A DNA stretch of 43,440 nucleotides from Escherichia coli (GCF_003334255.1 NZ_QOWU01000048.1); one strand, 5' to 3'. Positions 1 through 43,055 are shown, counted from the stretch's first letter. Translations and numbers: made by a program. The notes: a model not told the origin generated them from the sequence alone.

Positions 1-50
1 AGCTGATAGAAACAGAAGCCACTGGAGCACCTCAAAAACACCATCATACA

Positions 51-1361
51 CTAAATCAGTAAGTTGGCAGCATCACCTCCCTGTTTAAAATCATAATTTG
101 GTTGTTCTGTTCTTGAGTTATTAAGTAGAGTTCTTATCAGTGTTTGCCAAGCATGATTGATAAATTTATTTTCTGATTCTTTAAAATATCGTCTGATTAA
201 AGCACATAAATCTTCGACACTTTTCTGACGAGCGCTAGCTGCCCAACGGCCCCCTTCGGTTTGCACCATTGAACGTTGTACACTGTCTCCTAACTGAGCG
301 ATAAATTTCTGTTCATCGTCAAGTTGCATGTTTTCATTTATGATTAATTCATACAAAGCAAGAAAAACAGCTTGATAGTAACGAGGACATTCTTGAGATG
401 AAGATGCATTGCCCAGAATGTGTGATCTAAAGTTCAAATTATTTGCATCAAATAATTTTTGAATCATCTCATAAACGAAGAGGTAATTATTGACAATTTT
501 ATCTGCACCATTTGTCTGAATGTAATTCTCTAATTGAGTTCGTGTATGGATTGCATGACTCGTCGAACCTTCACCGTAAAATGTATCGAGCGATGTTGAT
601 CCTGATGTTGGCTTATCATCTAAAAATATATAGCCCAAGATATTTGCAACTAACTCTTCATCGTCAGAGTCTCTAATGCTAGGCCTACTAATGATATGAT
701 TTCTAATATAGAAATGATTGTCTATATTTATTCCATAATCGAGTCCATCATTGCAAATTGATATGTTATGTATTTTATTCAGTCCCATTATATCGCTATG
801 TGTAGTATCTCCTCTTATAATTGTCGATATTTTCCTTACTAACTCTGAAAAATTACTAACGCACCCCGCACTTCGTAGTTCTTGTTTTGATAAAATTTTA
901 CCATTGGAATTTATGCGTCGAAACACTTCGTCAATGTGGTCCTCTGTTGAAGAGTATTCAGATATAGCAAATCTATAGCGAGCAATTAATGTAGAACTTT
1001 CGCGGGATAGCACTGGCTCTTTTTGTTGAAGTTTACCACTGTCTTTTAGTTGTTTTGTTAATGCAATGGCATCTAAATTAAAGTATTTACCATTTAATGA
1101 AAATCGCTGCTCAATAAAACTCATTAAAGCTTCTAGTCTTTGCATTCCATCAAGGATTTCTCTTTTGTTGTCAATGGAAACAAACAATAGCAAAGGGATA
1201 GGGTATTGCTGAGTCATTGATGAAATCAGTGCTGTTTTCTCTTCGAGGGACCATACTAATTTTCTTTGGTATCTTCGATTTATAATTAATTTATCATCCA
1301 GATACCACTCGTATAATTCTTCTGCTGTCTTGGAGTCAATATCTAAGTTTTCATTAGCCAT
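51..1361 (-). CDS. DUF262 (ParB/Srx-like NTPase fold, GmrSD N-terminal-type) domain protein, 436 aa
   Basis: N-terminal 'RRYQRKLVW' and 'DGMQRLEAL' match the DUF262 signature (DGQQR-type motif). ATG start at 1361. Sits in an AT-rich block (1-1645) that contrasts with the GC-rich pem/rep backbone. No recognisable C-terminal HNH/DUF1524 motif seen. Confidence 0.6.
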   Translation of the reverse strand: MANENLDIDSKTAEELYEWYLDDKLIINRRYQRKLVWSLEEKTALISSMTQQYPIPLLLFVSIDNKREILDGMQRLEALMSFIEQRFSLNGKYFNLDAIALTKQLKDSGKLQQKEPVLSRESSTLIARYRFAISEYSSTEDHIDEVFRRINSNGKILSKQELRSAGCVSNFSELVRKISTIIRGDTTHSDIMGLNKIHNISICNDGLDYGINIDNHFYIRNHIISRPSIRDSDDEELVANILGYIFLDDKPTSGSTSLDTFYGEGSTSHAIHTRTQLENYIQTNGADKIVNNYLFVYEMIQKLFDANNLNFRSHILGNASSSQECPRYYQAVFLALYELIINENMQLDDEQKFIAQLGDSVQRSMVQTEGGRWAASARQKSVEDLCALIRRYFKESENKFINHAWQTLIRTLLNNSRTEQPNYDFKQGGDAANLLI

Positions 1362-1645
1362 TAGATGTATCTCGAGTATTTAGTTAAGAAACTGATAGGT
1401 CAGTATTTGCATCAATGTTCATTGAATTTGTATCCGAAGTCAATCTGATGTAGGAACTTCAAAACTGCGCAAAACACGCAAATACGCACAAGAAAGTAGG
1501 GCTGCGCTTGGAATTCGGAAAATAAACCACATCAAAACTACTTTTTAGCCAAATAACGTTTGGGAATCACCAGAATGGTGGGACAACAGCGGTTTTAGTG
1601 CCCTAAATCGTACGTTTTCATCCAGTTGCCCCTCAAACCCCATGT

Positions 1646-1978
1646 TCAAGTCAGAATAGTGGACAGGCGGCCAAGAACTTCGTTCATGATAGTCTCCGGA
1701 ACCCGTTCGAGTCGTTTTCCGCCCCGTGCTTTCATATCAATTGTCCGGGGTTGATCGCAACGTACAACACCTGTGGTACGTATGCCAACACCATCCAACG
1801 ACACCGCAAAGCCGGCAGTGCGGGCAAAATTGCCTCCGCTGGTTACGGGCACAACAACAGGCAGGCGGGTCACGCGATTAAAGGCCGCCGGTGTGACAAT
1901 CAGCACCGGCCGCGTTCCCTGCTGCTCATGACCTGCGGTAGGATCAAGCGAGACAAGCCAGATTTCCCCTCTTTCCAT
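1646..1978 (-). CDS. pemK: PemK/Kid toxin (endoribonuclease), 110 aa
   Basis: Translation from the internal ATG (MERGEIWLVSLDPTAGHEQQGTRPVLIVTPAAFN...) is essentially identical to R100/R1 PemK/Kid as I remember it. The ORF-track start at 2110 is a TTG over-extension. Confidence 0.9.
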   Translation of the reverse strand: MERGEIWLVSLDPTAGHEQQGTRPVLIVTPAAFNRVTRLPVVVPVTSGGNFARTAGFAVSLDGVGIRTTGVVRCDQPRTIDMKARGGKRLERVPETIMNEVLGRLSTILT

Positions 1979-1979
1979 G

Positions 1980-2237
1980 TCAGATTTCCTCCTGACCAGT
2001 CGCCGGTGCATCCAGCCATTCTCGTTCTTCAGCTGATATTTCAGCATTCGGATCACACTGTGCCAGTAGCTCAGCCAGTGAATATTGCGGGCGTCTGTAC
2101 GGCTCAACAATCAGCCGGCCATTATCAATGACCATGCCAACTTCATTATCTGTGCCCAGAGACAGCGCATTCAGCAGTGCCGGTGGGACGGTCAGCATAA
2201 CTGAGCCGCCAACCCTCTTCAGTCGGGTGGTATGCAT
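1980..2237 (-). CDS. pemI: PemI/Kis antitoxin, 85 aa
   Basis: MHTTRLKRVGGSVMLTVPPALLNAL... matches PemI/Kis. Lies immediately upstream of pemK with the typical 1-2 nt stop/start junction. Confidence 0.9.
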   Translation of the reverse strand: MHTTRLKRVGGSVMLTVPPALLNALSLGTDNEVGMVIDNGRLIVEPYRRPQYSLAELLAQCDPNAEISAEEREWLDAPATGQEEI

Positions 2238-2329
2238 TCTTCACCTCCATAAAAGTTATATTTAAATATAACATCCACTAAAAAAACACACCAGGCTTTA
2301 ACGCACAATGTTTAATAAAAATATAACTT

Positions 2330-2983
2330 TCAACCAAACAGTAAACCCAGCGTGGTTGCTTCCATATGCAGCAATACCGGCAGCAGCAGGCCACCACTTC
2401 TGATCCTGGCCACTGATGTAATCAACCCCACCAGGAACAGTTCTGCCAGTGTCAGCAGGTTCTGATACTGGCTGTGCGCGGCGACGAACAACAACGACGT
2501 TATCAGCGCCCCCAGCCACATCGTCCAGCAGTACCGTGAACGGAAGACGTTCAGCATAATCCCCCGGAACAGCGTTTCCTCATTCAACGGGGCAAGGATA
2601 AAGATGGTCAGCAACGTCAGGATCACGTCAGGTATGGACTTATCGGCAAAAAGTTTCGTCATAAATGGCTCAGCAGGCAGAGCCAGCGCCTTACCGAGCA
2701 GAAATACACCGACATACACCACGGCCATCGCACCGACCAGCCACGGTACGCCAACGTTGCGCAGCTGACCAACGACCGGTAGCGGAGCTATCCAACGGCG
2801 GTATACCAGGAAAACACACAGCAGGTACATCAGAACAGTACCATGACTGAAGAACAAATAGTTTTTTCCTGATCCATAAAGCAGAACGGCCTGCTCCATG
2901 ACAAATCTGGCTCCCCAACTAATGCCCCATGCAGCCAGCATAACCAGCATAAACTGCAGATATTGATTACGTGTTTGAATCAT
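2330..2983 (-). CDS. CPBP-family intramembrane metalloprotease (CAAX protease/Abi-like), 217 aa
   Basis: Multi-pass hydrophobic protein with the CPBP motifs 'EETLFRG' (EExxxR) and 'FVAAHS' (FxxxH). ATG at 2983. Confidence 0.65.
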   Translation of the reverse strand: MIQTRNQYLQFMLVMLAAWGISWGARFVMEQAVLLYGSGKNYLFFSHGTVLMYLLCVFLVYRRWIAPLPVVGQLRNVGVPWLVGAMAVVYVGVFLLGKALALPAEPFMTKLFADKSIPDVILTLLTIFILAPLNEETLFRGIMLNVFRSRYCWTMWLGALITSLLFVAAHSQYQNLLTLAELFLVGLITSVARIRSGGLLLPVLLHMEATTLGLLFG

Positions 2984-3599
2984 TGCATCGCCTGTAAATT
3001 TTTAACTTGTCCTATTTTTGTCATTACCACGTATATACACATGTATAACAATTCAGATATCGTTACCAGGATATGCCGCATCAGCGGCATGGAAGGCGGC
3101 ACTCTGTTGTTTCATATGATACAGGAGTAAAACCGCCGAAGCCCGGCGTAAGCCGGTACTGATTGATAGATTTCACCTTACCCATCCCCAGCCCTGCCAG
3201 ACCATACCCGCTTTCAGCCATGAGAGAGCTTCTGTGCGCGGTCGGAGTGGTCCCGACGAGGGTTTACCCGAAGTCGGGGCGTATCTCCGCGTTAGCGGGC
3301 CGTGAGGGCCGCTTACGAGCGTGTACTGAGAACTTCCAGCGAGAAGACTGACAGCGATGAAGATGTAGTTACAACATTCATAATTAAAAGCGACTCTGTT
3401 CCGGCCCTTTGGGCCGGGGCGGGGCCGCTTTTCAGTTATGAGGGAGGGGCTTTGTGGTTTCGGTTCTGCGCTGGACCGGGGTTTTTCTGGAGGTTGTTTT
3501 TGTGTGTTGTAACTAAAGTGGCTCCGGTCGGGGCCCGCCGCTTGCGGTGGGAGGTGCATATCTGTCTGTCCACAGGACAGGCAGTGAATAGGTTTTCTT

Positions 3600-3920
3600 T
3601 TTAAATGAATGTAATTAAGTAGTTTAAAGGAGATATAAACAGGTGTTTAAAAGATACATTGCACCCTGTAAGACTGGCGGCTGGCGCTTTATGACATGAA
3701 CGGTTGTAACCTTATGGGGAAGTCCCTTGCAGTTAAATGTGGATAAGCAAAATTCCCCGTCGCTGAGGCGTATTTTGTATTAAAAACAGGGGGAATCGGA
3801 TGCTCCAGAAGGTGGATGATGAGATTGTTTTTTGCATGCGACGCTGTTTTTTTGTGCACCGGCGGGCTTCAGGCGTGCGGATGCCTCCGGCGCAGGCCGG
3901 ATTATTCTGAGGAGATCACT
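3600..3920. other. RepFIIA vegetative origin region (oriR) downstream of repA1
   Basis: AT-rich block directly 3' of repA1 containing a DnaA box (TGTGGATAA, complement of TTATCCACA) at about 3749-3757. Position matches the known IncFII replicon layout. Confidence 0.5.
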
Positions 3921-3921
3921 T

Positions 3922-4779
3922 TCAGGGAGAAGCTGTGGCCAGCCGGCTGTAATTGCGGTTACGTGACAGAATCATGCGCTCCTTCACACGACGCTCCACT
4001 TCGCGTTTTACCGCCTCACCATTAGCAGTGAAGCGTCCTTCCGAGATTTCACGCGTCAGCTGCCGTTTCACCAGGGTGACGATATCCTGACGTTCTCTGT
4101 TCGCATCACGACGCGCACGGGCACGTTTTATTCCACGGGACTTAAGCTCTGTCTGGTAACTGCGGAAACGCTCACGCACAAAACGCCAGGCTTTCGCTAT
4201 CAGCTCATCCATACCCAGGGTATCCAGCCCCTGCTTTTTGCGCTGTTTGTTTTCCCATTCAACACGACTGCGGCGCGCAGCTGCCACTGCATCCTCAGAC
4301 ACATCAAGGGCAGCAAACAGAGCCAGTGTGAACGTGATGTCGGTCGGAATGTAGCACCCGATAAGCGGGTCATATTCCGTCTGGTAGGTAATCAGTCCCA
4401 GCTCTGACAGGAACGTCAGGGCCCGGGTGGCACGGGTGATGGAGAGTTTTCCTGCACCGGACTCTGTCGCCAGTCCGCACTCAATGGCCAGTGTGGTGAT
4501 GGAACACTGGACGCGGTTGGCCAGCGGGTCATAGTGGAAACACAGCCCCTGCAGCAGCGCATCAATAGCCCGTCGACGCAGCACCGGTGGCATGCGCCGA
4601 CGCAGACCACGGGAACGGGCATGCGCCACATGAATGGCGAAATCAAAACGGGAGGTGAAGCCCACCGCCTTTTCCATCAGTTTTTCGCAGAACTTCAGCG
4701 TTCCGGCACCTTCACGGGGAGTGAACACCGGATTCGGGTTCTTTACCTGGCGGTAATACGTTTGGTGAAGATCAGTCAC
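3922..4779 (-). CDS. repA1: RepA1 replication initiator (IncFII/RepFIIA), 285 aa, GTG start
   Basis: Protein (V/M)[36 protein letters not shown]... matches R100/R1 RepA1 over its full length. GTG start at 4779..4777 is preceded by AGGA and overlapped by the tap stop codon. ORF-track start at 4791 is an over-extension. Confidence 0.9.
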
Positions 4780-6453: not shown

Positions 6454-6915
6454 TTATTTACGGTGTCTCCATATCCAGGGGGGAACCGGATCAGCATCTG
6501 ACCAGAGCCCACGTTTTTGTTGTCTGGCTTCGTTCTGAAAGACAGGCAGCGCGGGATCTGTGTTGTACTGCTCATATACCCAGGCAGCCCCGGCCCGGAC
6601 CATAAACTGATTAACATTCATTCCGTCTGGTGCATAAACCTGCCCGAGAATACGACCATAACGATCTCGCTGAAAATATGTGACGGTAACCGTTTTTCCT
6701 GCAACCAGTGATTTCATCATGTCTGTCGACCACCGGCCATAATCCTGTTTCTTTTCCGGTGCATCAATATTTACCAGCCTGATCCGCACCGCCTTCCGTG
6801 AGTCCATGACCTCGATGGTATCACCGTCCAGTACACGAACAACCCGTCCATGAATATCTGCACACAATACCGGCCATGAAAAGATAAATAATACCAGTGG
6901 AATATATTTCCTCAT
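6454..6915 (-). CDS. Secreted thermonuclease (staphylococcal nuclease/SNase-like), about 153 aa
   Basis: Signal-peptide-like N-terminus (MRKYIPLVLFIFSWPVLCA) followed by SNase-like blocks ('DGDT', 'RIRLVNIDAPE', 'YGR', 'GLWSD'). Start trimmed to the ATG at 6915, which has a GGAGA RBS. ORF-track start at 6975 is an over-extension. Confidence 0.8.
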   Translation of the reverse strand: MRKYIPLVLFIFSWPVLCADIHGRVVRVLDGDTIEVMDSRKAVRIRLVNIDAPEKKQDYGRWSTDMMKSLVAGKTVTVTYFQRDRYGRILGQVYAPDGMNVNQFMVRAGAAWVYEQYNTDPALPVFQNEARQQKRGLWSDADPVPPWIWRHRK

Positions 6916-6993
6916 GTTATTCTCCATATCAGATAAATAGCACCTGTATTTCATGCATCCTGAATATTGCAGCACACACTGAATAACACCTTA

Positions 6994-18318: not shown

Positions 18319-18331
18319 CCAAAATATCCTT

Positions 18332-18841
18332 TTAACTAACAGACTCTTTTTTGAACAGTCCTATTACTGAGGCTATAGCTGAGAGATTATAACGATTTAT
18401 ATCTATGGTATACACCAAGAAAAATAATATGAATGTAATCATTAGTGCAAAAACATATAAGATAGAATGCATAAACGAAACCATAGAAAAAACAATCAAA
18501 AACAACAAAATATATGTCTTACTCTTAGAATACATAAAATTTATTATTTTTGAATCCTTTCTGAAACTATCAGGAATCGCAAGGTATAACATCATTCCAT
18601 TTGTAATAGCCACAAAAAGCAGGAACCCCATCATTCCACTAGCACATATATCAAAGCCAACATCCCTGACATCACTTTTAACCGATACTAAACGCAGAAA
18701 AGTTGGCCATAATAAAACCCATAAAAACACATAAGTTCCCGGCTTTATGACTTGTAATAATGATGGGATATTAACACCCTCTACAGAGAGTACCTCCTTT
18801 AGTTTTTGCATCTCCATTTTTATATCATAGTGAGTGATCAT
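18332..18841 (-). CDS. traS: TraS-like inner-membrane entry-exclusion protein, 169 aa
   Basis: Syntenic position between traG and traT. Very hydrophobic and AT-rich, as is typical of the hypervariable traS. Called from synteny and composition, not from sequence identity. Confidence 0.6.
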
Positions 18842-21663
18842 AATGGCCCCTTCAATCGTTCTTTCTTATCATCCACCATCTGTTTTAACGCATCTTCAGA
18901 CGGTGTTGGCATTAATTTCTGTCGTTTATTTTCTTCATTATATCTGTTGTTTTGTTGAATTTCTTCCTGTTTGTGATTATTTTTTAACTCTGAATATTGT
19001 CTGTCTACAATATTTTCTTCGCCATGAATACTATTCTGAGTATCTCCGATATTCCCTTTATATTCTGTGACCATATTATCAACCTGATGTTTTACATCAT
19101 TACGGATATTACTGTCCTGCGTTCTTTGATCAATAATGGCCTGATGCCCCTGATGGTCAGCAATAATATCCTGGCTGCCACCACCCGAAGGTACGCTCTC
19201 CATTCCTTTACCAATATCCCCACGGGATTCACGCCAGGCATTATCAACACCAGGCTGCACCTGTTCCTGAACAAAAGACCATGCCATCGCCCGACGGCGT
19301 TCTGCAATCTCCGGTGAACTGGTGTTTGTCAGAATAGCTTCGGCATCCTGCGGTGCGTGTTTCATCACATACTGTGCAAACTGTTGCGACAAATCTTCGC
19401 TCATCTGCCCACTCATGCTTTCAGTACGGGATGCCATTTCAGCATATTCATGGCTGCGGGTCATATTCGTCGTGTACTGGTCGTAACTCTGTTTCGCTGA
19501 GTTCAGGGCTGCAGACAACTGGTCCACGCGGGAATCGGCATTATTGTCAGTATGGCTGCCGGATTCACTGACTTTGCGACTGGTAAAGTAATCGCTGGCC
19601 TCTTTAAAGTCCTTACTGGCTTTAGCATCGATATCATGGCGAGCATCATGGGTAGCCCTGCTGCCACTACTTGCTGAATGTGAGTCATCATCCGTTGCAT
19701 CCAGGCTCCCCTTAAATCCACCTCTGATGCCTACCCCACCACCAACACCAAGAATTTTAGGTTTAACCCCCCATTCAGCATGAGCATCAGCATACATTCC
19801 ACCAGATAGCCTGGTACTTGTTGATGCCAGTTCCTGAGTCGCCTGCTCATTACTGATATTATGCGCCTTCGCATAGCTTTCCACTGCACTGCGCATACGG
19901 CTGGCCATCATGGAGTCCTGAGCACTCATCGTGCTGTCAGCACCACCGGTGACAGAATCACTGCTCCCCCGGTTAGAACCAAACTGACTGAGCGTGTTCC
20001 AGGCACTGGCAATACTGCTGCTGAACCCATGCAGGGCACTTTCTGCTCTGTTCGATGCTTCCCGGGCCATTTCCTGTTGTGCCGCCGCAATCTGACGCGT
20101 TGCATTGATACCGACCGGTAAACGGGACATCGCCCCGCTCGCATCCATCACCATATTACCGTCACGGGTCTGTGTGGCGGTTGCGCCACTGCCGGTCTGG
20201 TACATCATCTGACCAAACGACGTGGTGCTGTTGGTGCTCCAGCTGAAGCCGTTAACGTTCTCCGTCTGCATGTTGCCGTAGGAGTAATTACCGTCAACCA
20301 CACTGCCTGCTGCACTGGCGGTCGGGCTGATAGCAGAGGAAGCGAAATGGCTGTACACACTGGAAAATCCTGCCCCGAGCCCCCTGACCATCATCCAGGA
20401 TAATGGCGGGATCATCATGGAAAGATACCCGGCAGTGGAAGCCAGATCGGAGTATTTCAGCTGTATCTGTGAAATTTCCGAGAGCACCACCGGTGCACCA
20501 TTCTGCTTTGCATAAAATGTCATGGCGCTGTTCAGAATGGCGTACAACATTGGCCATGACTGCAACCACATCAGGGCAAACACATAGCCTTTCAGGACGG
20601 ACAGCGTCAGTTTGTTGAAGACAGCCGCCAGTACCAGGAGCGGGAAAATACCGATGGCGATCCCCGTCAGGATGGTCTGCGTCATGGGCAGTGTCCGCAT
20701 CGCCACATGACCGATGGAGACATGTGCCAGACGTTGCTTCTCCATCGATGATGTGGTGGCCAGATTCACCAGGCTGGCCGAATCACCATTACGTGCGGCA
20801 TAACTGGTGATCCCCTCCTTCAGCGCATTGATGGTGACATTCTGGCGGATGATCTGGCTGGCTGATTTACTTGAGCCATAGAAGTAACTGTAACTGTCGC
20901 CAATCAGCGTACTGAACAACAGGTTCGGATCAGGGCGTCCACCAAATAGCTGCTGGGCATAATAATGCCATGTTTTTCCGCCACTCTGTGTGTCCAGATT
21001 CAGCTTGTCTTTCAGCGAAACCGACGCGTCCTTACAGGTCACGAAATTATTATTGCTGTCATAAACGCCCCGCAGCGGACTGGGGCGGGAAAAAATCAGC
21101 GTGTAAGGATCAGCGGAGGCCATCAGTTCCTCCAGCGTGTATTTGTGGTTCAGGTAAATATCCCCCATCACGCAGTTCTGCACATAATCCTGGAAAAGAT
21201 TGGCGATTTCCGGATTACGGGACAAAAAGTCGGTGCTTTTTGATACCAGTTCTGCGCCAAACAGCATCCCCGTTTTGCTGTAGGTGACACTGTCCGGTTG
21301 CGTGAAGATCATCTCGTAACTGGCCACCATTGCATGCCCGATACGGGTCGTCAGTGAAAGTGGCATCGCCAGTCCGACCGGCACATTATCCACCCGGTGA
21401 ACTTTGACCAGGTCACTGTTATCAATAATCTGCACCGATGTGCGGACATTAACCAGCAGGCTGATAAGCACAAACACGGCCACCCAGCCCAGCAAATCCA
21501 TCACGTTGTGCCGCTGTACCCACATTACGGCCACCGCGAGAACAGACAATGTGAGCGCAATTTTTTCAATGGAATCCCACGTCCGGGTCCCCATAAAAGC
21601 GGCAATGGCATTCAGGTTATTCCGCAACCACTCACCACCGGCAATCACATAAACTTCATTCAC
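18838..21663 (-). CDS. traG: TraG mating-pair stabilisation/pilus assembly/entry exclusion protein, 941 aa
   Basis: Size, N-terminal polytopic region and large periplasmic C-terminal domain match F TraG (938 aa). Syntenic with traH and traS. Confidence 0.9.
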   Translation of the reverse strand: MNEVYVIAGGEWLRNNLNAIAAFMGTRTWDSIEKIALTLSVLAVAVMWVQRHNVMDLLGWVAVFVLISLLVNVRTSVQIIDNSDLVKVHRVDNVPVGLAMPLSLTTRIGHAMVASYEMIFTQPDSVTYSKTGMLFGAELVSKSTDFLSRNPEIANLFQDYVQNCVMGDIYLNHKYTLEELMASADPYTLIFSRPSPLRGVYDSNNNFVTCKDASVSLKDKLNLDTQSGGKTWHYYAQQLFGGRPDPNLLFSTLIGDSYSYFYGSSKSASQIIRQNVTINALKEGITSYAARNGDSASLVNLATTSSMEKQRLAHVSIGHVAMRTLPMTQTILTGIAIGIFPLLVLAAVFNKLTLSVLKGYVFALMWLQSWPMLYAILNSAMTFYAKQNGAPVVLSEISQIQLKYSDLASTAGYLSMMIPPLSWMMVRGLGAGFSSVYSHFASSAISPTASAAGSVVDGNYSYGNMQTENVNGFSWSTNSTTSFGQMMYQTGSGATATQTRDGNMVMDASGAMSRLPVGINATRQIAAAQQEMAREASNRAESALHGFSSSIASAWNTLSQFGSNRGSSDSVTGGADSTMSAQDSMMASRMRSAVESYAKAHNISNEQATQELASTSTRLSGGMYADAHAEWGVKPKILGVGGGVGIRGGFKGSLDATDDDSHSASSGSRATHDARHDIDAKASKDFKEASDYFTSRKVSESGSHTDNNADSRVDQLSAALNSAKQSYDQYTTNMTRSHEYAEMASRTESMSGQMSEDLSQQFAQYVMKHAPQDAEAILTNTSSPEIAERRRAMAWSFVQEQVQPGVDNAWRESRGDIGKGMESVPSGGGSQDIIADHQGHQAIIDQRTQDSNIRNDVKHQVDNMVTEYKGNIGDTQNSIHGEENIVDRQYSELKNNHKQEEIQQNNRYNEENKRQKLMPTPSEDALKQMVDDKKERLKGPL

Positions 21664-23036
21664 AGCGTGCTCCCTCCGAAGTGATAGTTGTTCTGGTAAC
21701 GACTGAGCATGCGGGCGGAAAGCTGCTGACGCATGTAGCTCATCTGACGATCGACAACCAGCAGCGCATCCTGCTGTACCTGCACCTGTGACTGAAACGC
21801 CGCAATCTGCCGGGTGGCATCATTCATGTTGTCGTTAATATGTTCGATAACTGCTTCGTCATAATTTCCTGTGGCCACCATCGCCCGGGCCTGCTGTATC
21901 AGCTCCTGAATGTACTGCAGCAGGATGTCGTAACCGATATAGTCCGTCAGCTGGTAAATCATACTGTTGGAAACACCGAGCATCTGCGGGTCAACCAGGT
22001 ATTTGAAGACGGGGATGGTGGTACTGGAAATAAAGCCTTTTTCCTTGTCATCCAGAGGCGTGTCACTGACAGCCTTGTTCTGAATGCTGGCCAGAAGTTT
22101 AGTAATCTGAGACTTCAGTGCATTATCCCGGCTGATGGTCACCGGTGTGTCTGCCACCACTTTCAGGCATTTATCAGAATCGTTGCAGTGATAAATTTTT
22201 GCTGTGCCGCCTTCCATCATGGCCCGGATAATTGAGCGGTCAGTGGTTCTGGCTGACAGCGGTGTGATTTCGCCGTTGGGACCAAACACCAGTGAGCCGG
22301 TCAGCGTCATCACAAACTCTTTCAGCTCTTTGTTGCCGTCAAACATTCTGTTTTTGGAAAGCGCATTCCACATGATGTTAATGTTTTTGGTCACCCGCTC
22401 CTTATCCTTGTCGCTGGCTTTATCCCTGACGCTGTCAGATTTACCGCCAACGGTACATCCCTGCCGGGAAGCCGCCCAGTCAGCAAAAATATTGCTCTCA
22501 CCGGCAATGTCCTGACAGACTTTTTGCTGGGACACCTGCGTCCGGGGGAAAAGCCCGCCGATAATCCCCTGCGCCGCCTGGCAGGAACTGAGGTTCATGC
22601 TGTTAATGTCGCTTGCCATTTTCTGCAGGAAGTCTTTTGCGGTTTTGATTTCCGGCACCGTTGTCTGCAGGGCAAGGTCAAAAAAGTAACCGGCAGCATT
22701 ACTCATAATCTGCTTAACAAAACGCTGCAGCTGCTCGCCATTAATAAAACTGAACGAACCGAGATAAGCGTCGATGCCGCCACATCCGGCATTGATATCC
22801 GGCAGCGTCATGGAAATCAGCTGAACATTTTTGACCTGAGTACGGGCATACAGGGAGCCGCCGTAAGCATAGCCGGCAGCCTGCCCCTGCCAGACGCCCG
22901 GCTGTGTGGTATTGGAGGCGAAGCCCAGCTTGTTAAAGAACTGATTCATGTCGCTGTTCACATCCGCTGACGCTGCGGGTGTGACCGTCAGTAAAGCAGC
23001 ACAAAGAACCAGAAGAGGTTTAATGCGTAGCATCAT
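21660..23036 (-). CDS. traH: TraH pilus assembly protein, 458 aa
   Basis: Signal peptide (MMLRIKPLLVLCAALLTVTPAASA), size and C-terminal coiled-coil match F TraH. Confidence 0.9.
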   Translation of the reverse strand: MMLRIKPLLVLCAALLTVTPAASADVNSDMNQFFNKLGFASNTTQPGVWQGQAAGYAYGGSLYARTQVKNVQLISMTLPDINAGCGGIDAYLGSFSFINGEQLQRFVKQIMSNAAGYFFDLALQTTVPEIKTAKDFLQKMASDINSMNLSSCQAAQGIIGGLFPRTQVSQQKVCQDIAGESNIFADWAASRQGCTVGGKSDSVRDKASDKDKERVTKNINIMWNALSKNRMFDGNKELKEFVMTLTGSLVFGPNGEITPLSARTTDRSIIRAMMEGGTAKIYHCNDSDKCLKVVADTPVTISRDNALKSQITKLLASIQNKAVSDTPLDDKEKGFISSTTIPVFKYLVDPQMLGVSNSMIYQLTDYIGYDILLQYIQELIQQARAMVATGNYDEAVIEHINDNMNDATRQIAAFQSQVQVQQDALLVVDRQMSYMRQQLSARMLSRYQNNYHFGGSTL

Positions 23037-23335
23037 TCTTGCCCTCCCTTAATTTGTTCTCCCGGCGCATACGACATTTCAGCAGGAATATCCCGATATT
23101 TCCGTCCAGTCCTGCGGCTGTAATATATTTCAGACACCGAAATCCATCCCACAATTGCCCCCACAAAAAACACAACAGAAACAGAAAAGGTAAGGCACAG
23201 CGAAACGACAATTTCTACAGGGCTGGCGGGATAAAAAAGCCCCTGACGGATAAAGGGGATATTCAGGCTGACGATTATTCCCGTCGCGATGCCGGATATT
23301 CCGGCAATGAGTAACACCACCTGCTTATTTCGCAC
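23033..23335 (-). CDS. trbJ: TrbJ-like small membrane protein, about 100 aa, start uncertain
   Basis: The only ORF between trbB and traH. Candidate GTG start at 23335, just after the trbB stop. There is not enough space for both trbJ and trbF, so trbF appears absent. Confidence 0.5.
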   Translation of the reverse strand: MRNKQVVLLIAGISGIATGIIVSLNIPFIRQGLFYPASPVEIVVSLCLTFSVSVVFFVGAIVGWISVSEIYYSRRTGRKYRDIPAEMSYAPGEQIKGGQE

Positions 23336-28086: not shown

Positions 28087-28113
28087 GATATATCCTGATG
28101 GCATTGTTACAAT

Positions 28114-28566
28114 TTAATTACCCGTAGGGTTTTCTCTCAATTTTTCTGCCAGTTTTAAAAAAGCATCAAACTCTTTCTGACCTGCGCATATTTTACTGGC
28201 TGTAATCGACACGGTTATTCCTGATGTGTTATTGGCAGAGTCTTTAATATCATTATTATGGACGGAGACATTATCGGGACTGAAAATATAAACTTTTTCT
28301 CTGGGATAATCCCTGTCCACATCCTCCCGCCACTGAATCTGTTCTTTATCAAAACGGTGATACATTATTGAGGAAAACCGGCACAACCAGTCGTCAATAC
28401 ATGACAGCTTATCCAGTAATTGTTGCGAATGACGGACCTCACAGGCAAGCTGCCGACACTCCATAATGCACCGTGACACACCACCATTTGCATTCACAAG
28501 CGCTTTCATCTCCAGCAGAACACCCATATCAAGTATTCTGGAGCCATATTTTATATTATTACTCAT
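28114..28566 (-). CDS. Hypothetical protein, 150 aa (distal gene of the AT-rich insertion in the tra operon)
   Basis: ATG at 28566 preceded by a GGAGG RBS at 5-nt spacing. About 38% GC against about 55-60% in flanking traU/trbC. No motif recognised. Several Cys (CIMECRQLAC, SCIDDWLC). Confidence 0.55.
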   Translation of the reverse strand: MSNNIKYGSRILDMGVLLEMKALVNANGGVSRCIMECRQLACEVRHSQQLLDKLSCIDDWLCRFSSIMYHRFDKEQIQWREDVDRDYPREKVYIFSPDNVSVHNNDIKDSANNTSGITVSITASKICAGQKEFDAFLKLAEKLRENPTGN

Positions 28567-28595
28567 TACACCCTCCTCTGTTTTTGTTTACACAT

Positions 28596-29057
28596 TTACC
28601 TGGCATAAATATTATCTGTATTACGATGCCTTGATGGCGTATAAACATTGCAACTCCTTTCTCTGTCAGAATTGAAGGACAATGCAATAACACCATCAAA
28701 CAACAGTTCGATAAACTCAGACTCACATGAGTCTGCAACCACAACCAGGCGTTTATGATATTTTCTGGCCTGTTTAATTAACCTGATAACTTTTGATGTC
28801 ATTTTCTTTTCACACAGCCTGACTCCATCAAGGATTAACGTCTTTTCAGGTGTATTCAGAAAATCAAAATTATCAATATTTTCATCACAAAGCCGGTTGT
28901 ACCCCGCAGAGTTAAGAGTTTTAAAGTTGTAATACCGGGAATCACTATCACTGATTCTTATTTCAGTCAGGAGAGTTGACTTGCCGGTATCTTCTTCCCC
29001 CTTAATCAGAATGCGGTCTTTAAAGTTCAGCATTAATTCTGTTGCCTGTTTATACAT
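28596..29057 (-). CDS. Small P-loop NTPase-like protein, 153 aa (proximal gene of the AT-rich insertion)
   Basis: Walker A-like 'GEEDTGKST' near the N-terminus and candidate Walker B 'TLILDG' / 'RLVVVADSCE'. ATG at 29057 with an AAGGA RBS, 25 nt after the traU stop. ORF-track start at 29096 overlaps traU and is rejected. Confidence 0.55.
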   Translation of the reverse strand: MYKQATELMLNFKDRILIKGEEDTGKSTLLTEIRISDSDSRYYNFKTLNSAGYNRLCDENIDNFDFLNTPEKTLILDGVRLCEKKMTSKVIRLIKQARKYHKRLVVVADSCESEFIELLFDGVIALSFNSDRERSCNVYTPSRHRNTDNIYAR

Positions 29058-29082
29058 AAAAAATCCTTCAGAATTAGTAGTT

Positions 29083-39311: not shown

Positions 39312-39539
39312 CTAAAGTTCTTTAAATGTTGACTCGCTCTCTTCGGTCACCTCCCTGAATATTTCTTCGTTATAGAAATCAGGAAATCGTTTCAGATGAT
39401 CTCTGAGACGGATCTGGACTTCTATCGTTTTACTTCTTCCACTACGATCTTTGGCCTTAATAAGTCGGTTATTTGTATCTTCATCGAGATACACCGAGAC
39501 CGTTCTGCTTATACCGCCTCTCGCGTTACGCCTCCTCAC
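39312..39539 (-). CDS. traY: TraY ribbon-helix-helix oriT-binding protein, 75 aa
   Basis: 75 aa, basic, R100-type TraY-like sequence (MRRRNARGGISRTVSVYLDEDTNNRLIKAKDRSGRSKTIEV...). Confidence 0.85.
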   Translation of the reverse strand: MRRRNARGGISRTVSVYLDEDTNNRLIKAKDRSGRSKTIEVQIRLRDHLKRFPDFYNEEIFREVTEESESTFKEL

Positions 39540-39632
39540 TCAATTCACCTCTGTTTCCCGACTAATAAAATTATGATTGCACAGAAACCGACGAAAAAAA
39601 ACACGCCAAAATTGGCGTGTCTTATTTAACAT

Positions 39633-40319
39633 TTACTTAACGCTATAAAATTCACGAATTATATTTAATAGCGAATCTATTTCCCCTTTATAGATACATG
39701 ACACTCTGAATAAATCAAAGTGTTCAAAAAATTCTTTTATTTTCCGTTTAACTGGTTTAATTCGATCCTCAGATGCTCTGTCTGTAATACCCAATTCTCT
39801 GGCAATTGTTGCATGACCAACACCCAGCATATAAAAAGAGAAAACAAGCAATGTCCCGGGGGAAAGATCATTCCATATCGTTAATTTGTCAGAAGTATTT
39901 GTATTACTTCCACTCTGATTTAACGCAAAAAATGGATAATCAGGAAACGGATTAATTTGCCATAAAACAACAGATTCGTCATTATAAAAAGAAACATTCT
40001 CCATCCTTATCTGATAGATTTCGCCATGAAAATTAAAACGACGACAAAATGCAGAGCCATGTCCAAGAGCCTGGCATTCCAGTTCAAGTGATGAAAGAAA
40101 AATTTCAACCTGCAGACGTATATAACTCTCTCCGGATAAGGGTTTATCTTCTCTGGAAAAGAGTTCAATAAAAGCCCCATTGGCATAAAGGATTTTCCGG
40201 TTTTTGTTACGGACACAAACCGGAACGGGAGAATTTCTGTAGATATTCTGAACGTTAAGGATGTATTTATTTACAGATTGACTGTTAAGTGGCCTTTCTC
40301 TACGATCCAGCGCACACAT
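39633..40319 (-). CDS. traJ: TraJ transcriptional activator of the tra operon, about 228 aa
   Basis: Start trimmed to the ATG at 40319 ([14 protein letters not shown]...), which has a GGAGG RBS at 5-nt spacing. C-terminal helix-turn-helix-like segment '[20 protein letters not shown]'. ORF-track start at 40379 runs into the finP/leader region. Confidence 0.8.
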
Positions 40320-40395
40320 AGGAACCTCCGTTAAGGATTCTATGGACAGTCGATGCAGGGAGGTCTGAACTCCCTGCATCGGCGATTTTCAGTTT
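40320..40395 (+). ncRNA. finP: FinP antisense RNA (approximate), complementary to the traJ leader
   Basis: Plus-strand perfect hairpin CGATGCAGGGAG-gtctgaa-CTCCCTGCATCG at about 40350-40381, followed by GCGATTTTC. Overlies the traJ RBS region on the opposite strand. Ends not mapped. Confidence 0.45.
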
Positions 40396-40509
40396 CAATT
40401 TTTAACGTGGCATTAACCACGTAATTAATATACTAATTATCTGACGTATTGTCATCTTTTTGAATCATAAAAATTCTTATATTTGAACCAACTCAAACTT
40501 CATTTTCAT

Positions 40510-40893
40510 TTATTCATCATCATTTTTTGGAAAAAACCGGTCCATCTCAACAGACACTTTCTCTCTGATATCGTCAACCATACTGGCATATTCAAACTTC
40601 GGGTTTCCGGAGACATGAGGACTGAGAGACTCAATACCTAAAATCTTTGCCACCGTTGACTGTGTTTTTACAACACATTCAAGAAGAAGTTTATTAAACT
40701 CTGTCTGGTTAAACGCAGACTCTTTACGCTCCATCTGTACATCATATACGCGAAGCCCCAATTCAAGAAGCATTGAAGCAGTTCCTGAAAGGCTTATATC
40801 TTTATCTCTTGCTCCCTCCTGACGACGCTTTTCAACAATCATGTTAATTTTTTCATGAACCTCATTACTGATATACAGATTTACTCTGGCCAT
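40510..40893 (-). CDS. traM: TraM relaxosome accessory/oriT-binding protein, 127 aa
   Basis: MARVNLYISNEVHEKINMIVEKRRQEGARDKDISLSGTASMLLELGLRV... closely matches F TraM. Confidence 0.9.
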   Translation of the reverse strand: MARVNLYISNEVHEKINMIVEKRRQEGARDKDISLSGTASMLLELGLRVYDVQMERKESAFNQTEFNKLLLECVVKTQSTVAKILGIESLSPHVSGNPKFEYASMVDDIREKVSVEMDRFFPKNDDE

Positions 40894-41307
40894 AAGACAG
40901 TACCTTTTATATTCTGAAATAAGTGTTTTATTTCATTTACTCATAGTTTGGTCTGAAAAAAGAAGAGCACCCCTAGCAGCGCCCCTAGGGTCATACTATA
41001 AAAAAACGCACGGCGCTGCTAGGGGCGGCCCTAATATATCCAAATGTTTTTCATAAAATTTGTCAGTACTGACCCTAACAAGGGTCGCCATAGGGTCGCC
41101 ATAGGGTCGTCAACGACCCTATTTAATAATGTAAAATAAATTAAAATACATTATTTAAAACATAAGCTAATGATTCAAAAAGCAAATCATCAAAAACTTG
41201 TTTTTGCGTGGGGTGTGGTGCTTTTGGTGGTGAGAACCACCAACCTGTTGAGCCTTTTTGTGGAGTGGGTTAAATTATTTACGGATAAAGTCACCAGAGG
41301 TGGAAAA
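40894..41307 (+). other. oriT: oriT (origin of transfer) with F-type nic sequence; nick predicted on the plus strand at about 41216/41217
   Basis: TTTGCGTGGGGTGT|GGTGCTTTTGGTGGTGAGAACCACCAACCTGTTGAGCC at about 41203-41250 matches the F nic region. Upstream lie inverted repeats (CCCCTAGCAGCGCC ... GGCGCTGCTAGGGG) and an AGGGTCGCCAT direct-repeat/palindrome cluster (41070-41121) between nic and traM. Confidence 0.8.
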
Positions 41308-41817
41308 ATGAAAAAATGGATGTTAGCCATCTGCCTGATGTTTATAAATGAGATCTGCCAGGCCACTGATTGCTTTGATCTTGCAGGCCGGGATTACAAA
41401 ATAGATCCTGATTTACTGAGAGCAATATCATGGAAAGAATCCCGTTACCGGGTTAATGCCATCGGTATTAATCCGGTAACGGGATATGGCAGCGGACTGA
41501 TGCAGGTAGATTCCCAGCATTTTAACGAACTGGCCCGCTACGGAATTAAGCCAGAACATCTGACAACAGATCCCTGCATGAACATTTATACCGGTGCTTA
41601 TTATCTGGCAATAGCATTTAAAAAATGGGGCGTCACCTGGGAGGCCGTTGGTGCATACAATGCAGGATTCAGGAAATCCGAACGCCAGAACCAGAGACGT
41701 CTTGCCTACGCATCAGAGGTTTACCGGATTTATACCGGGATAAAAAGCAGTAAAGGTATCCGGCTTCCGGCCACGAAGAAATCACTTCCGGAAATTAACA
41801 GCGTGCAGAATAATTAA
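41308..41817 (+). CDS. Gene X / orf169 lytic transglycosylase-like protein, 169 aa
   Basis: Start trimmed to [19 protein letters not shown] (signal peptide), giving exactly 169 aa. 'ISWKESRY', 'GLMQV' and 'AYNAG' are soluble lytic transglycosylase motifs. ORF-track start at 41170 would span the nic site and is rejected. Confidence 0.85.
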
Positions 41818-42061
41818 TCTTACAGACATTGTCAGATACCGGTTATGCCGCAAAAGCAGCATGGAAGGCCACACACAAAAATATCATATGAGTGACAATA
41901 CTGACTGGCCGAAGCCCCGCGAAGCGGGAACCCATCTTATATATACCCGGTAACTGCGCAGCCTCCTGCCAGACCATTTTTCGCGGGCACAATATTTACA
42001 GACAACCGGAAAGCCGGTCGATGAAATTGAGGTATATCAGACGACACAGCAATGCCGAAAA

Positions 42062-42115
42062 ATGATAATATAAGTAAAGCCCCGAAAATTTTTTCGGGGC
42101 TTTACTTATATTATC
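42062..42115. terminator. Long perfect palindrome (about 25-bp arms), probable bidirectional terminator between convergent gene X and orf273
   Basis: GATAATATAAGTAAAGCCCCGAAAA tt TTTTCGGGGCTTTACTTATATTATC. GC-rich core stem flanked by A/T runs on both strands. Confidence 0.6.
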
Positions 42116-42935
42116 ATGACTTCCACTTTCTGAACTGTTCGGCAATCACCCATAACGCCTTGTTGATTCTTATATCACCATCAATACCTGTAATGGCTCT
42201 TGTCCTGGTATTTTTCCCGGAGGCACTTCGCCCCGATAATCCACCTTTTATCATATTCTCCTGAACCCGCTGCCAGGTTGTCCAGAGATCGTTCTGTTTG
42301 TCTTCCCGACGACGGGGAGTAATTATCTGTTCAGGTGTCACTGGCGTTTTATTTTCATCTTCATACCTGACCATCAGTGCAGCTCTGCCAAATAAATGTT
42401 GCTCGTCACTGTTAAGATGAATTTCTTTCATCGCCTCCATATTATCAGTGACCTTATCAAAGACACCGAGCACTTCATACGCTCCCTCGATAACCTGCCC
42501 GACAATATCACCTTTATGTGGAACGCGGATTTCGCCAAAATTATTTCCGCACACCAGGCCATTTGTGCAGACAAAACGAAAAATTCCGGGGATCATCTGA
42601 TAACTGGATGAACCATCATGTGAATTAAGCAGGATAATTTCAGGAACTTCCTGTCCGTTAATATGCCCTTCCCTGCGAAGACGTAACATATGTTTACTGT
42701 ATTCGCGACGTCCCAAATCACGAACCCGACTCTGACAGGCAAAGAATGGCTGGAAACCTTCATCACGTAACTTATTGATGATATTGATTGTTGGAATATA
42801 CGTATAACGTTCACTCCGGGACTCATGTTTATCACCGGAAAATACCGAAGGCACGAACTGCATTAATTCATCATCCGTTAAAGGACGTTCACGGCGGATG
42901 GAATTATACCGACCAAAACGGGAAGCTAATCGCAT
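42114..42935 (-). CDS. DUF932-family leading-region protein (F orf273-like), 273 aa
   Basis: Start trimmed to MRLASRFGRYNSIRRERPLTDDELMQF..., giving 273 aa. Position is the first leading-region gene after gene X, as in F. Family assignment is from memory. Confidence 0.65.
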   Translation of the reverse strand: MRLASRFGRYNSIRRERPLTDDELMQFVPSVFSGDKHESRSERYTYIPTINIINKLRDEGFQPFFACQSRVRDLGRREYSKHMLRLRREGHINGQEVPEIILLNSHDGSSSYQMIPGIFRFVCTNGLVCGNNFGEIRVPHKGDIVGQVIEGAYEVLGVFDKVTDNMEAMKEIHLNSDEQHLFGRAALMVRYEDENKTPVTPEQIITPRRREDKQNDLWTTWQRVQENMIKGGLSGRSASGKNTRTRAITGIDGDIRINKALWVIAEQFRKWKS

Positions 42936-43055
42936 AACAGCTACTCCTTTATGAAAGAATAAATTTAATAAAAAATTTTTCCGCTTAATATCATCCCCCC
43001 CCCGATCTCCATTAACAAGATTGCAACAATCAGGAGAGATATTCATCACATCCGG

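What the first reader, a model, noticed from the sequence alone, without database searches (positions are those of the whole stretch)
2330..2983. CPBP-family membrane protease encoded beside the pemIK toxin-antitoxin pair
CPBP/Abi-like proteins are often associated with bacteriocin immunity or abortive-infection-like functions. Its position beside a toxin-antitoxin pair and the replicon suggests a stability or defence accessory rather than a housekeeping gene.
Basis: partly seen in the sequence, partly recalled or inferred. Interest (0 to 1): 0.3.

Follow-up and report, generated by a model that had tools for sequence, protein, structure and literature searches.

The report
R100 tir conjugation-inhibitor gene (CPBP fold)
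The gene is real and does belong to the CPBP membrane-protease family, but it is the long-known tir gene of plasmid R100, which blocks the mating transfer of other plasmids and is carried by over a third of complete E. coli genomes, so the finding is ordinary apart from its unsolved mechanism.

Summary

EExxxR, FxxxH and the last-motif histidine are invariant. The final Asn/Asp is Thr. pemI, pemK and the IncFII replicon flank the gene as described.

The DNA is 100% identical to plasmid R100. The literature calls the gene at this map position tir: it inhibits transfer of co-resident RP4. Its 82-86% identical IncL/M orthologue is the gene Tn1999 disrupts in pOXA-48, raising transfer 50-100-fold.

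It is therefore a fertility inhibitor, not an Abi, bacteriocin-immunity or toxin-antitoxin accessory gene. It has no PADLOC hit and almost no phage homologues.

tir-pemI-pemK is a sharply bounded 1.36-kb module shared by IncFII and IncL/M plasmids. More divergent tir orthologues (42-87%) lack pemIK. They stay beside the trbC/trbB/trbA transfer operon of IncL/M-like plasmids.

The likely mechanism, inferred rather than shown, is intramembrane proteolysis or sequestration of a type IV secretion membrane component.

Verdict: already known, extremely common, low interest. The one open point is that mechanism.

The parts
2330..2983 (-). tir coding sequence: 217 aa, 24.3 kDa, a CPBP/Rce1-like polytopic inner-membrane protein
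2564..2581 (-). CPBP motif 1, EExxxR (E135, E136, R140), at the end of helix 117-147
   Evidence: Invariant in alignments A1 and A2. E/E/R present in 99-100 of 101 family representatives. Codons read directly from the sequence.
2474..2488 (-). CPBP motif 2, FxxxH (F166, H170), followed by a subfamily-specific QY (Q172, Y173)
   Evidence: Invariant in A1 and A2. F in 100/101 and H in 95/101 representatives.
2354..2368 (-). Last CPBP motif, HxxxN in the canonical family. Here it reads H206-M-E-A-T210: the His is kept and the Asn/Asp is replaced by Thr.
   Evidence: H206 is invariant in A1 and A2. The +4 residue is T/A/S in close homologues and is N in only 25 of 101 representatives of the wider subfamily. 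Canonical motif definition from PMC3578759 and PMC11980579.
1980..2237 (-). pemI antitoxin (85 aa)
   Evidence: ORF. MazE/ChpS-type NCBIfam hits. R100 annotation pemI.
1646..1978 (-). pemK toxin endoribonuclease (110 aa)
   Evidence: ChpB/MazF-type NCBIfam hits. R100 annotation pemK.
2238..2329 (-). 92-bp tir-pemI spacer. No terminator-like hairpin was found, so read-through from tir into pemIK is possible. From my own knowledge, the autoregulated pem promoter lies here.
   Evidence: Sequence. The terminator scan found none in this interval. Promoter location comes from background knowledge of Tsuchimoto & Ohtsubo and was not tested here.
1646..3005 (-). tir-pemI-pemK module shared with IncL/M plasmids. 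It runs from the pemK stop codon to 22 nt upstream of the tir ATG, at 89.5% identity, and homology ends abruptly on both sides.
   Evidence: blastn of the window against L003. Annotation of L003 and L002. Synonymous divergence is similar for the three genes: Ks 0.33, 0.27 and 0.42.
3134..3148 (-). Terminator-like GC hairpin plus T-run about 150 nt upstream of tir. It could insulate tir from transcription coming from the origin/repA4 region. If so, the tir promoter would lie between 2984 and 3133.
   Evidence: Consensus scan only. Function not shown.
3922..4779 (-). IncFII replication initiator RepA1. The origin/repA4 region lies between it and tir.
   Evidence: NCBIfam TIGR03474 E=2e-175. R100 annotation. 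Gene order repA1-ori-repA4-tir-pemI/K as described in PMC4398462.

Best explanation
This is tir, the 'transfer inhibition' (fertility-inhibition) gene of R100-type IncFII plasmids.

Shown:
- It encodes a 24-kDa inner-membrane protein of about seven helices with the CPBP/Rce1 fold.
- The catalytic Glu-Glu...Arg, His and His residues are fully conserved, and the gene is under purifying selection.
- It is carried almost only on conjugative plasmids.

From the literature:
- In a donor that also holds the IncP plasmid RP4, R100 tir lowers RP4 transfer.
- The IncL/M orthologue lowers that plasmid's own transfer 50-100-fold, without changing traM expression.

Inferred mechanism: Tir acts after translation, in the inner membrane, as a glutamic intramembrane endopeptidase. 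It would cleave a membrane-embedded component of P-type and I-type type IV secretion systems, or less likely bind and sequester it. The most plausible target is the membrane-anchored coupling protein or its partners (RP4 TraG; IncL/M TrbC/TrbA). A pilin precursor is the alternative. The rival machine would then fail to deliver DNA.

The adjacent pemIK pair is a hitch-hiking addiction module, not a functional partner.
For: Identity: 100% DNA identity to R100 over 851 bp, in the order repA1-ori-[tir]-pemI-pemK. This is the map position the literature gives for tir (PMC4398462, PMC4707298, PMC10654068). One database source names a homologue 'putative transfer inhibition protein'.

Phenotype, from the literature: tir of IncFII plasmids inhibits IncP fertility (PMC5696584). 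[quoted passage not shown] I confirmed that pOXA-48-type plasmids carry an 82%-identical copy truncated at residue 151 by an IS10A-family element.

Protease-like machinery: Pfam hit. Invariant E135, E136, R140, F166, H170 and H206 across 98 sequences down to about 20% identity. CPBP fold. Ka/Ks 0.09-0.24.

Link to conjugation rather than to pemIK: orthologues of 42-87% identity lie between the TrbC / Thioredoxin_2 (TrbB) / DotM_C (TrbA) operon and umuDC of IncL/M-like plasmids, with no pemIK. Of the plasmids carrying the gene, 3,255 of 4,067 are typed conjugative.
Against: - No substrate is known and no protease activity has been shown for Tir.
- The oxyanion-hole Asn/Asp of the last CPBP motif is Thr here. 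Some CPBP proteins, such as SpdC (the best structural match) and Abx1 (PMC3578759), work as non-catalytic scaffolds.
- I could not read the primary papers (Tanimoto 1985; Potron 2014). The phenotype and the equation of the 1985 locus with this ORF therefore rest on secondary citations and map position.
- UniRef still names the protein 'Uncharacterized 24.3 kDa protein'.
- R100-1 did not inhibit IncW plasmid transfer in one survey (PMC5696584 Table 1), so any effect is target-specific.
Confidence: 0.6

Rival explanations
1. Tir inhibits conjugation without catalysis. Like SpdC/LyrA or Abx1, it is a CPBP-fold scaffold that binds and blocks a membrane protein of the transfer apparatus or a host factor needed for pilus or secretion-system assembly.
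For: The best structural match is SpdC, a CPBP protein known as a binding partner in the SagB-SpdC complex. The canonical Asn/Asp of the last motif is missing. A few representatives of the subfamily have lost H170 or H206 (P0128, P0134, P0137, P0140).
Against: E135, E136, R140, H170 and H206 are invariant across 98 sequences with a mean column identity of only 22%. That is hard to explain unless the active site is in use.
Confidence: 0.2
2. The gene is an Abi-like defence or bacteriocin/toxin self-immunity protein, or a stability accessory that works together with pemIK, for example as a third component of the toxin-antitoxin system.
For: The Pfam family was formerly named 'Abi', and some members confer bacteriocin immunity. 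Linkage to pemIK is near-total in close relatives. The three genes form one sharply bounded module with similar Ks values. No terminator lies between tir and pemI. A 36%-identical homologue sits directly after a VgrG/VRR_NUC/TsiV/PAAR type VI effector cluster. A DUF262 protein with defence-model hits lies just downstream of pemK.
Against: No PADLOC model matches Tir. There are only two remote hits among 50,697 phage records. No bacteriocin or membrane-acting toxin gene is in the neighbourhood. PemK is a cytoplasmic RNase, and from my own knowledge of Tsuchimoto et al. 1988 pemI plus pemK alone are sufficient for stabilisation. Orthologues of 42-87% identity lack pemIK altogether. The documented phenotypes concern conjugation.
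Confidence: 0.08
3. Tir processes a protein of its own plasmid or host, for example maturing a pilin, a lipoprotein or a C-terminal sorting signal as myxosortase does. Under this view fertility inhibition of other plasmids is a side effect of that activity.
For: Characterised bacterial CPBP proteases are maturases (MroQ, myxosortase; PMC11980579). In IncL/M-like plasmids tir is divergently adjacent to small secreted-type proteins (DUF1496) and to the trb operon.
Against: Natural tir knock-outs in pOXA-48 transfer better, not worse. IS insertions in tir are frequent and tolerated in IncF33 plasmids (PMC10654068). All NCBIfam equivalog models for named CPBP maturases score far below their cut-offs.
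Confidence: 0.12

Closest known systems
tir (transfer inhibition of RP4) of IncFII plasmid R100/NR1 (Tanimoto et al. 1985)
   Same: Nucleotide sequence 100% identical over gene and flanks. Same position between the origin/repA4 region and pemI.
   Different: Nothing detectable. This window is an R100-like plasmid whose tra genes are 88-98% identical to R100.
tir of IncL/M plasmids (intact in pNDM-type IncM and pCTX-M3-type plasmids; split by Tn1999 in pOXA-48)
   Same: 82-86% amino-acid identity. Same tir-pemI-pemK order in many members. Literature phenotype is inhibition of conjugation.
   Different: Different backbone: an I-type mating apparatus, with the trbCBA operon and DUF1496 upstream and umuDC downstream. 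The promoter region is unrelated, since homology starts 22 nt before the ATG. The reported phenotype is on the plasmid's own transfer, not on RP4. Some members lack pemIK.
PifC (F plasmid) and FipA (pKM101), other fertility inhibitors of IncP plasmids
   Same: Same phenotype class: co-resident inhibition of RP4/RP1 transfer (PMC5696584). They act on the coupling protein TraG, which motivates the target proposed here.
   Different: No similarity to PifC or FipA turned up in the Pfam or NCBIfam scans of Tir. I made no direct sequence comparison. From my own knowledge they are soluble cytoplasmic proteins, whereas Tir is a polytopic membrane protein with a protease-type active site.
Rce1 (type II CAAX prenyl endopeptidase; MmRce1, PDB 4CAD) and SpdC/LyrA (PDB 6U0O)
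   Different: Only 11-13% identity. Not detectable by sequence search of the PDB. The last-motif Asn is replaced by Thr. Tir is shorter (217 aa), plasmid-borne and of unknown substrate.
Characterised bacterial CPBP proteases: MroQ, the myxosortases MrtX/MrtC/MrtJ, ABC_perm_CPBP
   Same: Weak profile similarity over the catalytic core, E=5e-9 to 3e-4.
   Different: All scores (21-36 bits) are far below the curated cut-offs (75-435 bits), so Tir belongs to none of these equivalogs. The Tir subfamily has its own signature, AR-x-x-S-G-G-L-x-L-P-x-x-L-H, with invariant P132 and R193 and a near-invariant Y173.

Membership tests
CPBP / Rce1-like intramembrane glutamic endopeptidases (Pfam PF02517) | Significant match to the family profile | tested here: met
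   PF02517 i-Evalue 3.3e-17, residues 120-207, model positions 4-88 of 93.
CPBP / Rce1-like intramembrane glutamic endopeptidases (Pfam PF02517) | Motif 1, EExxxR | tested here: met
   E135, E136 and R140 are invariant in A1 and A2.
CPBP / Rce1-like intramembrane glutamic endopeptidases (Pfam PF02517) | Motif 2, FxxxH | tested here: met
   F166 and H170 are invariant in A1 and A2.
CPBP / Rce1-like intramembrane glutamic endopeptidases (Pfam PF02517) | Last motif HxxxN/D: the histidine | tested here: met
   H206 is invariant in A1 and A2.
CPBP / Rce1-like intramembrane glutamic endopeptidases (Pfam PF02517) | Last motif HxxxN/D: the Asn/Asp (oxyanion-hole residue in MmRce1) | tested here: not met
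   Position 210 is Thr. It is T/A/S in close homologues and N in only 25 of 101 subfamily representatives.
CPBP / Rce1-like intramembrane glutamic endopeptidases (Pfam PF02517) | Polytopic membrane protein with the Rce1 three-dimensional fold | tested here: met
CPBP / Rce1-like intramembrane glutamic endopeptidases (Pfam PF02517) | Endopeptidase activity on a defined substrate | not testable with these tools
   Needs biochemistry. No paper in the searched library links Tir to CPBP catalysis.
Tir fertility inhibitor of IncFII/IncL-M plasmids | Sequence identity and map position of R100 tir (between the origin/repA4 region and pemI) | tested here: met
   100% identity to R100. Gene order matches the description in PMC4398462.
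Tir fertility inhibitor of IncFII/IncL-M plasmids | Orthology with the IncL/M gene disrupted by Tn1999 in pOXA-48 | tested here: met
   82% identity over residues 1-151, ending at an IS10A-family element in 63.6-kb IncL plasmids. An intact copy is 86% identical.
Tir fertility inhibitor of IncFII/IncL-M plasmids | Reduces conjugative transfer of RP4 or of its own plasmid | not testable with these tools
   Literature only, and only through secondary citations. The primary papers are not held.
Anti-phage defence / abortive infection systems | Match to a known or candidate defence protein model | tested here: not met
   No PADLOC family at E<=1. One PHROG of unknown function at 9e-7. Two remote Listeria phage hits only.
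CPBP ('Abi') bacteriocin self-immunity proteins | Encoded in a bacteriocin locus, next to the toxin or peptide it protects against | tested here: not met
   The neighbours are pemI/pemK, a DUF262 protein, the origin and repA. In IncL/M they are trb genes and umuDC. No bacteriocin gene is present.
Obligate third component of the pemIK toxin-antitoxin system | Co-occurrence with pemIK across the whole family | tested here: not met
   Co-occurrence holds for close copies: 3,059 intact tir+pemIK against 3,819 full-length pemIK. Orthologues of 42-87% identity lack pemIK.
Named NCBIfam CPBP equivalogs (MroQ, MrtJ/MrtS/MrtC, ABC_perm_CPBP, CPBP_Sphingo) | Score above the curated cut-off | tested here: not met
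   Best scores are 20.7-35.9 bits against cut-offs of 75-435 bits.

The most novel reading that the evidence does not exclude
Tir is a catalytically active intramembrane glutamic protease. It shuts down conjugation by cutting a specific inner-membrane part of P-type and I-type type IV secretion systems: the coupling protein or its DotM-like partner, or a pilin precursor. That would be the first proteolytic fertility-inhibition mechanism and the first CPBP protease with a defined substrate in Enterobacteriaceae. The Tir subfamily (33 clusters at E<=1e-30, 386 at E<=1e-10) would then be a set of plasmid-borne 'anti-conjugation proteases'.
Probability: 0.35. Interest if true: 0.6.

Novelty: already known. 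Interest (0 to 1): 0.22.

Why it matters
The gene is named, mapped and has a published phenotype, so nothing new is being discovered here. It is also one of the commonest plasmid genes in clinical Enterobacteriaceae: 38% of complete E. coli genomes and 5.6% of all PLSDB plasmids.

Two points still matter.
- Its loss is credited with the high transfer rate of the pandemic pOXA-48 carbapenemase plasmid, yet its mechanism is described as still to be elucidated (PMC7690428).
- The library search found no paper connecting Tir with its CPBP protease architecture.

The invariant Glu-Glu/His/His site and the confident model give a directly testable hypothesis: active-site mutants followed by a substrate hunt among secretion-system membrane proteins. 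If that hypothesis is right, it would offer a natural protein inhibitor of resistance-plasmid spread.

Tried and rejected
- Sequence searches of the PDB found no CPBP structure, either with the protein or with the family profile. These relatives are too remote for sequence methods.
- I could not obtain the primary papers: Jiang 1993 and Potron 2014. Tanimoto 1985 is not in PMC, so it was never looked up. Author-annotated GenBank records that might carry the gene name tir were also unavailable (AP000342, HG941719, KY749247, JN232517).
- A literature search combining 'tir' with 'CAAX' returned mostly irrelevant TIR-domain and TIRF-microscopy papers.
- The sigma-70 consensus scan found no promoter anywhere in 1500-4000, even though from my own knowledge the pem promoter lies there. 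It therefore says nothing about tir transcription.
- Ka/Ks against L004 (0.51) is unreliable because the two genes differ by indels and were compared codon by codon without alignment. I ignored it.
- Tir as an anti-phage Abi protein: rejected.
- Tir as a member of the MroQ or myxosortase equivalogs: rejected.

Full report
**1. The observation.** Window 2330..2983 on the minus strand is an uninterrupted ATG-initiated ORF of 217 codons.
- The product is hydrophobic (mean Kyte-Doolittle 0.93) and basic (pI 9.6). Its mass is 24.3 kDa, with six or seven stretches long enough to span a membrane.
- Pfam assigns residues 120-207 to PF02517, 'Type II CAAX prenyl endopeptidase Rce1-like', at E=3.3e-17.
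- NCBIfam gives only sub-threshold matches to several CPBP equivalogs such as MroQ and the myxosortases: 21-36 bits against cut-offs of 75-435 bits.
- Downstream on the same strand lie pemI (1980-2237) and pemK (1646-1978). Upstream lie the origin region and IncFII repA1 (3922-4779).

**2. Motifs and fold.** The literature defines the CPBP core by EExxxR, FxxxH and HxxxN, each within a transmembrane helix (PMC3578759, PMC11980579).
- In an alignment of 15 homologues (33-93% identity), E135, E136, R140, F166, H170 and H206 are invariant.
- A HMMER scan of 1.84 billion representatives found 9,143 relatives at E<=1e-3, 386 at E<=1e-10 and 33 at E<=1e-30.
- In 98 full-length members with a mean column identity of 22%, the invariant columns are P132, E135, E136, R140, F166, H170, R193 and H206.
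- The one departure is the residue four positions after H206. It is Thr in this protein and T/A/S in close homologues. It is Asn in only 25 of 101 representatives.
- The subfamily carries its own signature, AR-x-x-SGGL-x-LP-x-x-LH.
- A first AlphaFold model from the shallow alignment was poor (pLDDT 70) and gave meaningless fold matches.
- Membership of the CPBP superfamily is thus well supported, with a variant last motif.

**3. What the gene actually is.**
- An 851-bp query around the ORF is 100% identical to plasmid R100 (NC_002134), and 2,831 PLSDB plasmids match it at >=99%.
- The whole window is an R100-like IncFII plasmid in reverse orientation. It carries the replication region and the complete F-type tra operon at 88-98% identity to R100.
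- In R100 the order is repA1, origin/repA4, this gene, pemI, pemK, a DUF262 gene and IS1.
- The literature gives exactly this position to tir. [quoted passage not shown] See also PMC4707298 and PMC10654068.
- tir was defined in 1985 as the R100 gene that inhibits transfer of co-resident RP4. It is listed with pifC and fipA among fertility inhibitors of IncP plasmids (PMC5696584).
- I could not read the 1985 paper, so the equation of locus and ORF rests on map position and later annotation. UniRef still calls the protein 'Uncharacterized 24.3 kDa protein'.

**4. A second line of experimental evidence.**
- tblastn shows that 63.6-kb IncL pOXA-48-type plasmids carry an 82%-identical copy. It ends at residue 151 against an IS10A-family element, and its remainder lies on the far side of the blaOXA-48 transposon.
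- Intact IncL/M copies are 86% identical.
- This is the tir whose disruption by Tn1999 is reported to raise pOXA-48 transfer 50-100-fold without changing traM expression. The mechanism 'remains to be elucidated' (PMC7690428; PMC9686884; PMC9664867; bioRxiv 10.1101/2020.07.01.180638).

**5. Relation to pemIK.**
- In PLSDB, tir DNA occurs in 4,067 records, 3,047 of them near full length.
- pemIK occurs in 3,835 records, 3,819 of them full length.
- The combined 1,338-bp tir+pemIK query is covered at >=80% in one place in 3,059 records.
- In the rows sampled, the remaining pemIK carriers are pOXA-48-type plasmids in which tir is split. Among close relatives the linkage is therefore almost complete.
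- IncFII and IncL/M share a discrete block, window 1646-3005. It runs from the pemK stop codon to 22 nt upstream of the tir ATG, at 89.5% identity, with no homology beyond either edge.
- Synonymous divergence is similar for the three genes: Ks 0.33, 0.27 and 0.42. This fits movement as one 1.36-kb module.
- PMC10654068 independently treats tir-pemI/K-ycdA-ycdB as an acquired segment. It notes that tir is an insertion hot spot for IS1294 and ISEc62.
- The linkage disappears with distance:
  - An IncL/M plasmid with an 87%-identical tir has umuDC directly after it.
  - 68%, 47% and 42% orthologues occupy the same slot with no pemIK. That slot lies between the TrbC / Thioredoxin_2 (TrbB) / DotM_C (TrbA) operon and umuDC.
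  - A 68% orthologue on a Serratia IncFII-type plasmid also lacks pemIK.
- tir is therefore the older gene, tied to conjugative backbones. In the I-type lineage it is tied to the coupling-complex operon. pemIK is a later passenger.

**6. Defence or immunity?**
- No PADLOC model matches Tir, even at E<=1.
- PHROGs gives one family of unknown function.
- Among 50,697 phage records only two Listeria phages have a remote (25% identity) hit.
- No bacteriocin or membrane-toxin gene is nearby.
- The gene is in 2,053 of 5,426 complete E. coli genomes, and 2,323 of its 2,376 places are on plasmids.
- The only hint of an immunity-like context is a 36% homologue placed after a VgrG/VRR_NUC/TsiV/PAAR cluster. 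That is too distant to transfer to Tir.

**7. Mechanism.**
- Shown here: a polytopic CPBP-fold membrane protein, an invariant catalytic set, purifying selection (Ka/Ks 0.09-0.24), and carriage mainly on plasmids typed conjugative (3,255 of 4,067).
- From the literature: inhibition of P-type (RP4) transfer and of I-type (IncL) self-transfer, with no effect on traM expression.
- Inferred: Tir acts after translation in the inner membrane. It would do so by cleaving a membrane-embedded secretion-system component, or less likely by sequestering it.
- The functional analogues PifC and FipA act on the coupling protein TraG (PMC5696584). In IncL/M-like plasmids tir sits next to the trbC/trbB/trbA operon, whose TrbA carries a DotM_C domain. 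From my own knowledge, TrbC and TrbA are DotL/DotM-like coupling-complex proteins.
- The coupling complex is therefore my first candidate target, with pilin precursors second.
- The Thr-for-Asn change and the SpdC-like fold keep a non-catalytic scaffold model alive.
- I put about 0.95 on the identity as tir and about 0.6 on the overall explanation. Within that, about 0.35-0.4 goes to true proteolysis of a secretion-system component.

**8. Verdict.** The finding is a correct annotation of a well-known, extremely common plasmid gene. Novelty: already known. Interest is low. The residual value is that the CPBP active site makes the 40-year-old question of how Tir blocks conjugation directly testable, and no paper in the searched library makes that connection.

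Noticed in passing
window 51-1361 (-): A 436-aa DUF262 protein lies directly downstream of pemK (R100 WP_001262765). It has no NCBIfam hit but matches PADLOC defence models NsnA (4e-22), PD-T4-2_A (7e-19) and REase_II (4e-10). Of the genes in this corner of the plasmid, this one, not tir, looks like a possible defence nuclease.
   Followed up: partly
window 1-77: The first 77 bases of the window are 100% identical to the DNA at the IS1B-family element of pOXA-48-type locus L002. In R100 an IS1B transposase gene sits just beyond the DUF262 gene. The tir-pemIK-DUF262 block therefore abuts an IS1 copy.
   Followed up: no
window 1646-3005 versus L003 4979-6337: The tir-pemI-pemK block shared by IncFII and IncL/M plasmids has razor-sharp edges: the pemK stop codon and 22 nt upstream of the tir ATG. 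The tir promoter region is not part of it, so each backbone must supply its own transcription signal. No repeats or recombination sites at the edges were looked for.
   Followed up: partly
window 17400-43000: The tra region is mosaic relative to R100. Blocks of 95-98% identity alternate with blocks of 88-91% (for example 18992-23097 and 40299-43000). Several short gaps have no R100 match at all (about 18320-18991, 28095-29081 and 39402-40298). This suggests recombination with another F-like plasmid.
   Followed up: no
window 6454-6975 (-): A thermonuclease-family protein next to hha and a DUF2726 gene matches PADLOC candidate model C3a212 (SNc+LTD) at 3.7e-15.
   Followed up: no
L011 1837-7657 (FO818638.1, a 177-kb record): A 36%-identical Tir-like CPBP gene sits immediately after a VgrG / VRR_NUC / TsiV / PAAR type VI secretion effector-immunity cluster. 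Some members of the wider subfamily may serve toxin immunity or processing rather than conjugation control.
   Followed up: no
protein clusters P0069, P0076, P0082, P0107, P0109: N-terminal fragments of Tir, mostly products of IS- or transposon-split genes, are named 'histidine phosphatase family protein' in NCBI records. This looks like a propagated misannotation.
   Followed up: no
L012 105-9416; L004; L006: The gene order repA ... trbC-trbB-trbA-small ORF | tir | umuD-umuC is conserved in IncL/M-like plasmids even where Tir is only 42-47% identical. That is unusually stable synteny for an 'accessory' gene.
   Followed up: partly
window 3134-3148 (-): A GC-rich hairpin followed by a T-run lies about 150 nt upstream of tir, between the origin/repA4 region and the gene. 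It may be a terminator isolating tir from origin-region transcription. This rests on a consensus match only.
   Followed up: no
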